Assembly: GCA_030264375.1 (NCBI GenBank)
Contig: JASCQW010000043.1
Location: 72,125,124-72,189,123 of the forward strand
Reading direction: 5' to 3'
Origin: Carcharhinus longimanus
Taxonomy: Eukaryota
DNA length: 64,000 nucleotides
Shown: one piece after another, positions 45,001-48,000 of the stretch
Position numbering within the stretch: position 1 is the first letter of the stretch
Layout of the letters: every line of letters begins with the position of its first letter
Program-made: the position numbers

Positions 45001-48000
45001 TTGGGAAAAAATTTCAGGAATTGGTGGGGTTGGAATGCTTAACATATTTGTAGAGTTGAACAGTTAGCCCATATTATTGTGTTAATCAATTATTATGAGT
45101 AAACTAAAGAATCATTAAAATGATTGGTGGTTTATTCAGCATTAAGTCTTGTTGCAGACATTCATTCAAATTCTTTAAACATTACCATGTTTAGTTTTGA
45201 AAGGTGAAAAATGATTTACAAAATGGGCACTCACTGAAGAAAGTACAGATTCTGATTTGCCATAGAGACTTTGGTTTTATTTAAAGCATTTTGTTTGTTA
45301 TAATTCTATGAGTTTGATTAGCCTTAAGTCCATTTCTGCCGCATTGAGCATTTTTCTGTGAGCACTCAAACTAGATTATAGAAATCTGGGTGCACCCAGT
45401 GCTGCAGAATTTATACGAAAAAGTCCAGAAACCCATATCTTTATCTCTCTATTTATTCACAGAAAGAAATGCACATATCTTTGGAGGGAGGGCATGGGGT
45501 GAATGGAAAATTAAACCTTTTCACTATCCAGTGAAAAGTTTTGCAGCCTATCTTCATTTTTCTTTTGTTAAATTTTATAGGAAGACAACGGCATATTGTG
45601 GAATGGTGAAACAAGTGGAGAAGGCTGTCATGCAGATTTGATTTTAAGGAAATGTACCAAAAGGGATACTGCCTCTTTAATTGCATGTCTAAAGTGAGCT
45701 CTAAGTGCTAAAACGAATTACACATTTGACTTCATTATTGTTGCTCCACTGCACTTCTTTTTGATGGGTCAACTCAATGCTACATTGCAAGGGCTATAAT
45801 TAAAGTAATGGCCCATAAGGCTCGCTGGATATGTTCTTCTCATGATTCAGAGCAGTCTTGGATATAAAGTAACTTTCTAAATTTCATGTCATTAGGTTTT
45901 AATTATTTTGTTTTTGTTTTGTTATTTTAATTGAAATGCTACCAATAAAACAATGGTACCTTTTTGTTTTGGTTGTATTTTATCATTTATTCTATTTTGT
46001 TTGGAGCTACTATTGATTCCACCTTCTGGAATATGATTATGACTTTATCATTTGAAATTCTTGTGTTCTTTTTGTTGCTGTATGTATATGTTATTGTGTA
46101 TAAAAATTGAATTGTTGGATTTTAAAAAAATGTAACTTTCAGACACAAAAAGTAATATAGAATAGACTCAGTACTGAAAAATTGACAGTATCACTCCATT
46201 CTCTTCTTCATCAGAGGTTATTATAAACACAAAAGTTCAAAAGCATCTAATTTATGATATTAACACATGGGCCAGAATTCTCCAGTCTTGCATGGCCTGC
46301 CACCGCTGACAGAGACAATGGAAAACTTGGCACTTAGCCAAATCTCTCTTCATAGCAGCGAGACTGGAGAATCCCAGCCATATGTTTTTGTAGAATAGAA
46401 GAAGATAGGAGATTAGTCCCTTATTTGAAAAAAATCATTTAAACTCAAAATCCTATCTGCTCCCTAAGCGATTACCCTGTTTGAGTCTGAAACAGTAATT
46501 AATGTCACCAAGCTAAGCAATTTTGTTGTAGGTTTAGATGCTGCTATGGTTTTTGTAATGAAATTGTTAAACATGCTGTGCTCTTGACAAGAGACTGTGC
46601 ACTGATGATGTGATTTTCATTCCAAACAAGCATAACCTTCTGCACAAGATAAAATTCAAAGCCACATCCAGTTCATTAACTGAGACAGGAATGCACCAAC
46701 TGTGACGGATCCTTTTTTTTCTCGTTTTAAGAAGAGGTGAGCCTGAACCATGTTTCCTGCCCTTGCCCTCACCCAATCAATCAGTAGCTGAACAAGTGCA
46801 ACCAGTTTTGGAAAGGAAATGGTTATTGAACCCTCCACTGGAAACCATGAAAATAATAGCTCTCATTGAGCTGCATGGAAATCTTTCTTTTTAATGGTGC
46901 ACCTCACTAAATGCCTCTCACTATATGCTCAGTTATCCTGTGCCAACATTGCATAGGCTTCAAAGGTCATTTCTTTCTTGGCAACGTAATAAAGGAAAGG
47001 ACATTGTCCCTTAATTATTATTTATAAAGTATATTGCTGCACTTCCTGGGTCATTTTACTCTTTTTTTTTAGTTTATGCATGCATGCTTGGTGTCATATA
47101 ATTTGGCATACAGAACTAAAATGTTATCTCACTGGAAACCAAGTAGTCTGACAGATAAAAGCAAGTATTTTTAATTCTTTTTAGCTTGTGATGAAATCAG
47201 AGGTAATTGAGAGGAGATATTACAGAAGAGTTCACACGTTCCTTTTCTTGGTGACAGAGAAATCGATTTTTAAAGTAAGGGATTTTCAGAGAGAATTTAA
47301 TTCTCGCCCCTCATCGACATGAGAGCCGGCAGCAATTGCATAGCAGCCGTTTTCAGGAGACCTGTCTTGATTAAATTCATTCTGTTGGCTGCCATTTGAG
47401 TTCCAGGCTCATGAGAGGGGAATTTCCTGTTGGAATTTTTCCTCCAGGTTGGATGACCCACCTCTGAGAGCTGATGGTCAGGTCACTTTTCAGTACTGGC
47501 AGTGCCACTAGGAGCGTTGCCCCGTGCTGTTACTGCAACAGACCCAAGGCTGAAGCCCTGGAATGCAGGTAAGTTGGCGCAGAATTTTCAGGGCCAGTCA
47601 GACAACCATGGGGGAAAGGATCAGTGTAAAGTTCTGGGGTGTGTCTTCCTGTGGGTCCCTCCCTTACTATCAATGGATCCCTCTGGGCACTGGGTGCCTG
47701 AGAAGGAGAGATCTGCCCTCAAACAGGCCACAGGCATGCCCATCAGGGTTTACCTGGCAGTTTTCCCACAAGGTGTGGCCCCCACATACTATTCATAGAC
47801 CATTAGCGATTGTGATTTGTGGGCTGTAAGTGGTCCTGAAGCAGTCATTTAAAGGCCTCAACTGGCCTGAGGTTAAAAAAAACTTTTTTGATTCTTCCGA
47901 CCCCAGAATTAATGAGGGAGTGGGGTGGGGGGAGCAACTGACAAGATAATGTGGTCTCCAACCCGGACCTTCCTACCCTATTATACAGCCCCCCATTGCA

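What the first reader, a model, noticed from the sequence alone, without database searches (positions are those of the whole stretch)
45540..46010. Candidate novel truncated-receptor terminal exon (GRQRHIVEW*) with poly(A) signal in the post-TM intron
Seen: a strong acceptor at 45580 gives G-R-Q-R-H-I-V-E-W-stop in frame with the TM exon, then about 335 nt of putative 3' UTR, AATAAA (45944) and a T/GT-rich downstream element (45961-46000), all in apparently non-repetitive sequence. Known: TrkB makes the kinase-less T1 isoform (tail FVLFHKIPLDG) from a short terminal exon in this same intron. I found no convincing canonical T1 exon in the window. Inference: an independently derived T1 analogue whose hydrophobic-X-hydrophobic end (VEW) could be a class II PDZ-type motif.
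Basis: partly seen in the sequence, partly recalled or inferred. Interest (0 to 1): 0.65.

Follow-up and report, generated by a model that had tools for sequence, protein, structure and literature searches.

The report
Shark kinase-less TrkB terminal exon
This is a real alternative last exon of a shark TrkB (NTRK2) gene that yields a kinase-less receptor with a short tail shared by a skate and a chimaera and unlike the T1 tail of bony vertebrates.

Summary
The window is the + strand TrkB (NTRK2) gene of a shark; it is not human. The Ig2 exon is 99% identical to Scyliorhinus torazame TrkB. An AG at 45579-80 opens an exon at 45581. Read in phase with the transmembrane exon (25840-25939), it gives G-RQRHIVEW-stop. 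AATAAA lies 335 nt after the stop.

Splice and poly(A) signals alone are at chance level: 37 of 2450 AG sites in this stretch of the intron pass the same crude filter. The proof is two public kinase-less TrkB proteins. P0003 (unnamed, skate-like, 472 aa) ends ...KFGMKGRQRHIVEW. Its contigs are at most 3358 nt, so they must be spliced RNA. P0005 (Callorhinchus milii V9KMQ8, 467 aa) ends ...KFGMKGRQRHIVEC.

Bird, snake and 13 teleost truncated TrkB proteins carry a clearly related T1 tail instead. The cartilaginous-fish tail shows no detectable similarity to it, and no T1-type exon is in the window. Whether the exon arose independently or is a diverged T1 orthologue cannot be decided here. The PDZ-motif idea is weak, because the last residue varies (W or C). 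I rate it a new variant of a known kind: present in databases, and I found no description of it in print.

The parts
25840..25939 (+). Transmembrane/juxtamembrane exon of NTRK2 (VYVVVG...RFGKHSKFGMK plus the first base of a Gly codon). Its donor GTAAGG at 25940 is shared by the full-length and truncated forms.
   Evidence: It matches 32 of 34 residues of Scyliorhinus torazame TrkB (P0001).
45553..45580 (+). 3' splice site of the alternative terminal exon: candidate branch point TTCAT (45553-57), a pyrimidine-rich tract with no AG in it, and AG at 45579-80.
   Evidence: 15 of 20 pyrimidines, equal to the Ig2, linker and TM acceptors. The branch point is my reading and was not tested.
45581..45610 (+). 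Coding part of the terminal exon: the last two bases of the Gly codon, then R-Q-R-H-I-V-E-W and TGA.
   Evidence: 9 of 9 identical to the C-terminus of P0003 and 8 of 9 to that of P0005.
45611..45943 (+). Putative 3' UTR up to the first AATAAA. It contains an earlier ATTAAA at 45799.
   Evidence: Its extent is inferred; no 3'-end reads were available. Further hexamers at 46988, 47370 and beyond could serve a longer UTR.
45944..46000 (+). AATAAA (45944-49) followed by a T/GT-rich stretch (45961-46000): a candidate cleavage and polyadenylation site.
   Evidence: These are consensus matches in AT-rich DNA; use of the site is not shown.
13809..14111 (+). Ig2 exon of the same gene, used to identify the gene and lineage.
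   Evidence: 99% identical to S. torazame TrkB isoform X1, 93% to P0003 and 83% to P0005 (table; 82 of 100).

Best explanation
The stretch 45581 to about 45965 is an alternative last exon of the shark NTRK2 (TrkB) gene.

After the transmembrane exon (ending at 25939) the spliceosome has two choices. It can join the far-downstream juxtamembrane and kinase exons, which lie beyond the window. Or it can join this exon 19.6 kb into the intron. This exon completes a Gly codon, adds eight residues (RQRHIVEW), stops, and probably carries its own poly(A) site.

The product is a receptor with the complete BDNF-binding ectodomain, the membrane span and a cytoplasmic stub of about 20 residues, but no kinase. 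This is the cartilaginous-fish counterpart of TrkB-T1.

By analogy with T1 it should bind ligand, pair with full-length TrkB and so damp kinase signalling, and take up or hold ligand. The tail's conservation across sharks, skates and chimaeras suggests it also binds some partner of its own.

[quoted passage not shown] Inferred: use of the exon in this species, the poly(A) site, and all protein functions.
For: Gene identity: eight upstream TrkB coding exons lie in order on the + strand, and the Ig2 exon is 99% identical to S. torazame TrkB.

Tail: P0003 ends KFGMKGRQRHIVEW and P0005 (V9KMQ8_CALMI) ends KFGMKGRQRHIVEC. The window matches them only at 45580-45606.

P0003 is reported on 26 contigs, the longest 3358 nt. 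The same coding exons span more than 44 kb here, so those contigs must be spliced RNA.

P0003 and P0005 have LRR and Ig domains but no kinase domain. They are otherwise collinear with the full-length P0004 and P0006 up to GMKG.

The tail is 8/8 (skate-like) and 7/8 (chimaera) identical to the window's, against 264/343 and 240/343 for the upstream exons (my sums). The Holocephali-Elasmobranchii split is dated 421 Ma and the shark-ray split 306 Ma (PMC3692497, abstract).

The acceptor is as pyrimidine-rich as those of the constitutive exons. AATAAA lies 335 nt after the stop.

T1 functions are taken from PMC8934854 (passages).
Against: There is no transcript evidence for this species itself. The truncated proteins come from other cartilaginous fishes, and one of them is unnamed.

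The splice and poly(A) signals are no better than those of 36 other sites in the same intron stretch.

The tail's conservation is not significantly above that of the rest of the protein; by my arithmetic P is roughly 0.12 and 0.26.

Function is by analogy only. The T1 tail, whose specific sequence is said to be needed for T1's own signalling (PMC8934854), is not shared.
Confidence: 0.88

Rival explanations
1. Origin, reading A: the exon is the orthologue of the T1 exon (human exon 16). It was inherited from the jawed-vertebrate ancestor, its short coding part diverged beyond recognition on the stem lineages, and it was then frozen in each lineage.
For: It lies in the same intron, directly after the TM exon. 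It has the same phase, the same first residue (Gly) and a similar length (8 residues against 11 to 15), and it is a terminal exon with its own stop (PMC8934854). A loose gapped alignment pairs H, I and an acidic residue near the end (print-out).
Against: The permutation tests show no similarity above shuffled tails (P 0.31-0.81 across 12 settings). Within each lineage the tail barely changes over 300-420 Ma, so a complete turnover on the stem needs special pleading. The shared Gly is nearly forced: the codon's first base comes from the TM exon, and G is the usual first base after an acceptor (established splice-site knowledge).
Confidence: 0.4
2. Origin, reading B: an independent gain, or a replacement, of a kinase-less terminal exon in the cartilaginous-fish lineage. 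In other words, convergence on the same receptor design.
For: There is no peptide similarity to T1. No T1-type exon is in the 38 kb of intron held in the window. The only 2 truncated cartilaginous-fish TrkB proteins among the 120 listed of 197 hits both carry the RQRHIVE tail. The T1 tail type is shared by tetrapods and teleosts, so it dates at least to the bony-vertebrate ancestor.
Against: The rest of the intron (beyond 64000) and eight N runs inside it (540 bases in all) could hide a T1-type exon. Eight residues are too few to exclude homology. No outgroup (lamprey, hagfish) was examined.
Confidence: 0.45
3. The tail works as a class II PDZ-binding C-terminus (V-E-W).
For: The end has the form hydrophobic-X-hydrophobic in the shark and the skate-like protein.
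Against: The chimaera ends V-E-C, so the position that a PDZ pocket reads is the one residue that varies. W is an unusual last residue for PDZ ligands (recalled, not tested). No binding test was run.
Confidence: 0.1
4. A chance ORF behind a chance acceptor, with no exon. Or a non-productive 'poison' exon whose transcripts are degraded.
For: 37 of 2450 AG sites pass the same crude filter. A GTGAG at 45694 could act as a donor and make the exon internal.
Against: The exact 9-residue identity to the end of P0003 and 8 of 9 to P0005, at the only matching place in the window. Both proteins end at this stop. The ORF is preserved over 306-421 Ma.
Confidence: 0.04

Closest known systems
TrkB-T1 (NTRK2 exon 16 isoform) of mammals and birds
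   Same: A kinase-less receptor made by splicing the TM/juxtamembrane exon to a short terminal exon in the next intron. That exon has its own stop, 3' UTR and poly(A) sites. The ectodomain is identical to that of the full-length receptor, and the cytoplasmic part is about 20-23 residues (PMC8934854 and PMC7293284 passages; P0017 and P0013).
   Different: The tail is RQRHIVE[W/C] (8 residues) instead of FVLFHKIPLDG (11), with no detectable similarity. Any tail-specific partners of T1 need not be shared.
Teleost ntrk2a truncated isoforms (tail G[CF]VLFQNIPVE[VM]VSR)
   Same: The same design. They show that a T1-type exon is old and stable in bony vertebrates. The tail core is read in 13 teleost-type proteins: P0102 and P0121-P0131 and P0173.
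   Different: These tails are plainly homologous to tetrapod T1 (VLF..IP[VL][ED]). The shark tail is not.
Other kinase-less Trk isoforms (truncated TrkC; other truncated TrkB forms)
   Same: Alternative terminal exons that remove the kinase. TrkB and TrkC truncated isoforms are said to be conserved and abundant (PMC8934854 passage).
   Different: They are a different gene or a different exon position. Their tail sequences were not compared here; several unnamed TrkC-like truncated ends were only glimpsed.

Membership tests
TrkB (NTRK2) gene | Ordered exons encoding LRR, LRRCT, two Ig domains, linker and TM with the TrkB-type juxtamembrane KFGMKG | tested here: met
   eight upstream coding exons on the + strand. 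The Ig2 exon is 99% identical to S. torazame BDNF/NT-3 growth factors receptor.
T1-type truncated TrkB (by design) | Terminal exon in the intron directly after the TM/juxtamembrane exon, joined in phase 1 and giving a short tail and a stop | tested here: met
   25939->45581 gives Gly plus 8 residues plus TGA.
T1-type truncated TrkB (by design) | The product lacks the kinase domain but keeps the whole ectodomain and TM | tested here: met
   P0003 and P0005 have LRR, LRRCT and Ig families but no kinase family; they are collinear with the full-length P0004 and P0006 up to GMKG.
T1-type truncated TrkB (by design) | Own 3' UTR and polyadenylation site | tested here: inconclusive
   AATAAA at 45944 and a T/GT-rich stretch are present, but such hexamers are common here and no 3'-end data were available.
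TrkB-T1 proper (orthologue of human exon 16) | The T1 tail FVLFHKIPLDG or a recognisable relative (VLF..IP[LV][DE]) | tested here: not met
   permutation P 0.31-0.81; no T1-type reading anywhere in 25940-64000.
TrkB-T1 proper (orthologue of human exon 16) | Orthologous genomic position shown by conserved flanking or 3' UTR sequence | not testable with these tools
Class II PDZ ligand | Conserved hydrophobic residues at the last and third-last positions, and binding to a PDZ domain | tested here: inconclusive
   V at -2 is conserved. The last residue is W, W and C in the three sequences. Binding was not tested.

The most novel reading that the evidence does not exclude
Cartilaginous fishes and bony vertebrates each fixed a different, unrelated terminal exon in the same NTRK2 intron. 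Each tail was then held almost unchanged for 300-420 million years.

That would mean the kinase-less receptor is the indispensable, convergently reached design, while its tail-dependent signalling is lineage-specific. RQRHIVE[W/C] would then be a new short binding motif with its own partner.
Probability: 0.4. Interest if true: 0.55.

Novelty: new variant of a known kind. Interest (0 to 1): 0.42.

Why it matters
How TrkB-T1 signals through its 11-residue tail is still open. The review read here calls the pathway 'still unknown' (PMC8934854). Its conservation has been stated only for rodents, human and chicken.

This work adds two facts:
- The T1 tail type extends to teleosts.
- Cartilaginous fishes make the same kind of receptor with a wholly different tail that is just as stable.

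This gives a natural swap experiment. Functions shared by both tails, such as ligand trapping and dominant-negative pairing, need no particular tail. Functions that differ map to the tail. It also dates kinase-less TrkB to at least the common ancestor of each major jawed-vertebrate branch.

It is not a surprise in kind, so the interest is moderate.

Tried and rejected
1. Cluster listing of P0001, P0003 and P0005, to see whether a Scyliorhinus truncated isoform is annotated. Whether NCBI annotates this isoform in catsharks stays unchecked.

2. Region search with the end of P0003. Only 2 of 20 candidates passed E<=0.001: P0003 itself and the full-length Amblyraja radiata TrkB. No further carriers of the tail were found.

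3. Representative search with P0005. The 150 best of 2411 hits were listed. Nine proteins under 900 aa showed short ends after the TM motif, and none has the RQRHIVE tail. One unnamed hit with a mammal-like TM (P0185) was left unused.

4. T1-type exon in the window. The motif scan found only LFHK at 35894, out of phase and with no stop nearby. An HMM of 14 T1 tails against 1263 forward-frame pieces gave a best i-E of 0.12, with no hit covering more than 6 of 11 positions.

5. MLCFKNIPVKK-stop at 43096-43131 looked like a decayed T1 exon. It has no in-phase AG and no pyrimidine tract, its i-E is 0.81, and two better chance hits exist. A neutral relic should not survive about 400 Ma. I rejected it as chance.

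6. Cluster of TGCATG (Rbfox-type) sites at 45682-47081. It is not above chance: 54% of 300 Markov simulations reach 4 sites in 1.5 kb.

7. The bacterial promoter/terminator scan has no meaning for this DNA.

8. Papers. No paper holds RQRHIVEW, RQRHIVEC or GRQRHIVE or the teleost tail strings. 'Truncated TrkB' plus 'shark' gave 14 papers (13 listed), none about sharks judging by the titles and abstract starts in the listing. In a six-term search for cartilaginous-fish TrkB, none of the 12 papers listed (of 930) contained 'TrkB'. The catshark BDNF paper PMC10253963 mentions TrkB 3 times and 'truncated' not at all.

Only the Ig2 exon of the window was sent to a search. Supplementary files of papers were not opened.

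Full report
**What the window is.** Stop-to-stop reading frames and tblastn with three database proteins place TrkB (NTRK2) coding exons in order on the + strand:
- LRR: 1685-1753
- LRRCT: 5667-5822
- Ig1: 10153-10290 and 11863-11997
- Ig2: 13809-14111
- A 33-nt micro-exon: 17419-17451
- Linker: 20274-20377
- Transmembrane/juxtamembrane exon: 25840-25939

Splice boundaries were read. The Ig2 exon alone (100 residues) was sent to the protein search. Its best hit is BDNF/NT-3 growth factors receptor isoform X1 of Scyliorhinus torazame (99% identity), followed by ray, skate and chimaera TrkB. Other exons are 79-100% identical to that catshark protein. The window therefore comes from a shark related to, but not the same as, S. 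torazame. It is not human. The exon that follows the TM exon in full-length TrkB (PSSVISTDDD... in P0001) has no match in the window. The intron after 25939 therefore runs past 64000.

**The observation.** AG at 45579-80 is preceded by a T-rich tract with 15 of 20 pyrimidines. That is the same count as at the Ig2, linker and TM acceptors. There is no AG between a TTCAT at 45553-57 and the acceptor. The TM exon ends with one base of a codon. With it, 45581 onward reads G-R-Q-R-H-I-V-E-W-TGA. AATAAA lies at 45944, about 335 nt past the stop, and a T/GT-rich stretch follows. The region is single-copy within the window apart from a short repeat that starts at 46270. It has no Pfam or Rfam match.

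**Chance.** The signals by themselves prove nothing. Of 2450 AG sites in the part of the intron held in the window, 70 have an equally pyrimidine-rich tract with a pyrimidine at -3. Of those, 45 open a phase-1 frame of 2-30 codons, and 37 of these also have a poly(A) hexamer 50-1500 nt downstream. A reader working from signals alone would have had dozens of equal candidates.

**What decides it.** Among the hits, two cartilaginous-fish proteins are short.
- P0003 is 472 aa, unnamed and from the read-assembly source. It is nearly identical to Amblyraja radiata TrkB over its length, so it is from a skate or a close relative. It ends ...KFGKHSKFGMKGRQRHIVEW.
- P0005 is 467 aa, UniProt V9KMQ8 of the elephant shark Callorhinchus milii. 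It ends ...KFGKHAKFGMKGRQRHIVEC.

Both stop exactly where the window's frame stops. The only place in the window that matches these ends is 45580-45606. P0003 is reported on 26 contigs, none longer than 3358 nt. The same coding exons span more than 44 kb here, so those contigs can only be spliced RNA. This is direct evidence for the TM-to-tail junction in a batoid. Both proteins carry LRR, LRRCT and Ig families and no kinase family. They are collinear with the full-length proteins of the same lineages (P0004, P0006) up to GMKG.

The tail is 8/8 and 7/8 identical between the window and the two proteins. The upstream exons are 264/343 and 240/343 identical (my sums). The splits involved are dated 306 and 421 Ma (PMC3692497, abstract). 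A 27-base frame and its stop would not survive that long without selection. With only eight residues, however, I cannot claim the tail is more conserved than the rest of the receptor.

**Comparison with T1.** TrkB-T1 is made by joining exon 15 to exon 16. Exon 16 encodes FVLFHKIPLDG, a stop and a 3' UTR with several poly(A) sites. [quoted passage not shown]

In my hits:
- A bird isoform ends GFVLFHKIPLDG, and a snake isoform ends GSVLFHKIPLDE.
- 13 teleost-type truncated ntrk2a proteins carry G[CF]V[LMF]FQ[NRS]IPVE..., mostly followed by VVSR. These are P0102 and P0121-P0131 and P0173.

The T1 tail type therefore goes back at least to the common ancestor of ray-finned fishes and tetrapods. I found neither the teleost strings nor the cartilaginous-fish tail in any searchable paper.

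The cartilaginous-fish tail does not resemble T1. I compared it with six T1 tails under three gap costs, with global and local alignment, for both the W and C forms. It scored no better than 2000 sampled permutations of its own residues (P 0.31-0.81). The window also holds no T1-type exon. A motif scan found only an out-of-phase LFHK. An HMM of 14 T1 tails against all 1263 forward-frame pieces of 25940-64000 gave only partial hits, with a best i-E of 0.12. One of these, MLCFKNIPVKK-stop at 43096-43131, looks suggestive. It has no in-phase acceptor and is within chance.

**Origin.** The data leave two readings about equally likely.
- The exon may be the T1 orthologue, with its coding part turned over on the stem lineages. 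The same intron, phase, first residue and size favour this. But the shared Gly is nearly forced by splice-site rules, and both tails are otherwise very stable.
- It may be an independent or replacement exon. The lack of similarity favours it, but eight residues, an incompletely sampled intron and eight N runs in the intron part cannot settle it.

No vertebrate genome DNA could be searched with the tools on hand, so orthology of the exon stays unchecked.

**Function.** By design this is a T1-type receptor. The functions that depend only on having the ectodomain without a kinase should carry over: heterodimers that silence full-length TrkB, and binding, uptake and storage of BDNF (PMC8934854, passages). 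T1's own calcium signalling is reported to need its specific intracellular domain (same passages). That domain is not shared, so it may or may not carry over.

The basic run R-Q-R-H next to the membrane and the fixed I-V-E suggest a specific partner. The PDZ proposal is weak, because the final residue is the one that varies (W, W, C).

**Limits.**
- There are no transcript data for this species.
- The representative search added no further carriers of the tail.
- The provenance of V9KMQ8 as a transcript-derived entry is my recollection, not a tool result.
- Supplementary files of papers were not opened.

**Verdict.** The finding is real. It is a kinase-less TrkB terminal exon conserved across cartilaginous fishes, with a lineage-specific tail. 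It is present in databases, and I found no description of it in print. I rate it a new variant of a known kind, of moderate interest.

Noticed in passing
window 17419-17451 (+): A 33-nt, frame-preserving micro-exon (NEPITDPEFY) lies between the Ig2 and linker exons, with AG at 17417-18 and GTAAGT at 17452. It is present in P0001 and P0003 (9 of 10 residues each), so it is probably an alternatively included cassette of the extracellular juxtamembrane linker.
   Followed up: partly
window 43096-43131 (+): This stretch reads MLCFKNIPVKK-stop. Five of six residues match the teleost T1 core FQNIPV, and a stop follows two codons later, 2.4 kb upstream of the real tail exon. There is no in-phase AG and no pyrimidine tract, and the HMM i-E is 0.81 with two better chance hits, so I took it as chance.
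   Followed up: yes
window 45682, 46289, 46872, 47077, 47081 (+): Five TGCATG (Rbfox-type) sites lie within 1.4 kb after the tail exon. This is not above chance in simulations (P = 0.54).
   Followed up: yes
window 23286-23744 (-), 34639-34821 (+), 60237-60587 (-); also 43753-43862 and 46270-46379: An interspersed repeat family shares a reading frame of the form ..NY.GCWNLK.KEK.LENLS... Separately, a 110-nt pair of repeats is 77% identical. They are probably transposon-derived and none overlaps the tail exon.
   Followed up: no
proteins P0102, P0121-P0131, P0173 (not in the window): Teleost ntrk2a truncated isoforms carry a clear T1 homologue (G[CF]VLFQNIPVE[VM]VSR). The strings are absent from the searchable literature, so T1 conservation reaches further than the 'rodent, human, chicken' stated in reviews.
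   Followed up: partly
window 3559-4223 and 55194-55753: Long proline-rich open frames occur on both strands in two GC-richer patches. They look like low-complexity or repeat DNA.
   Followed up: no
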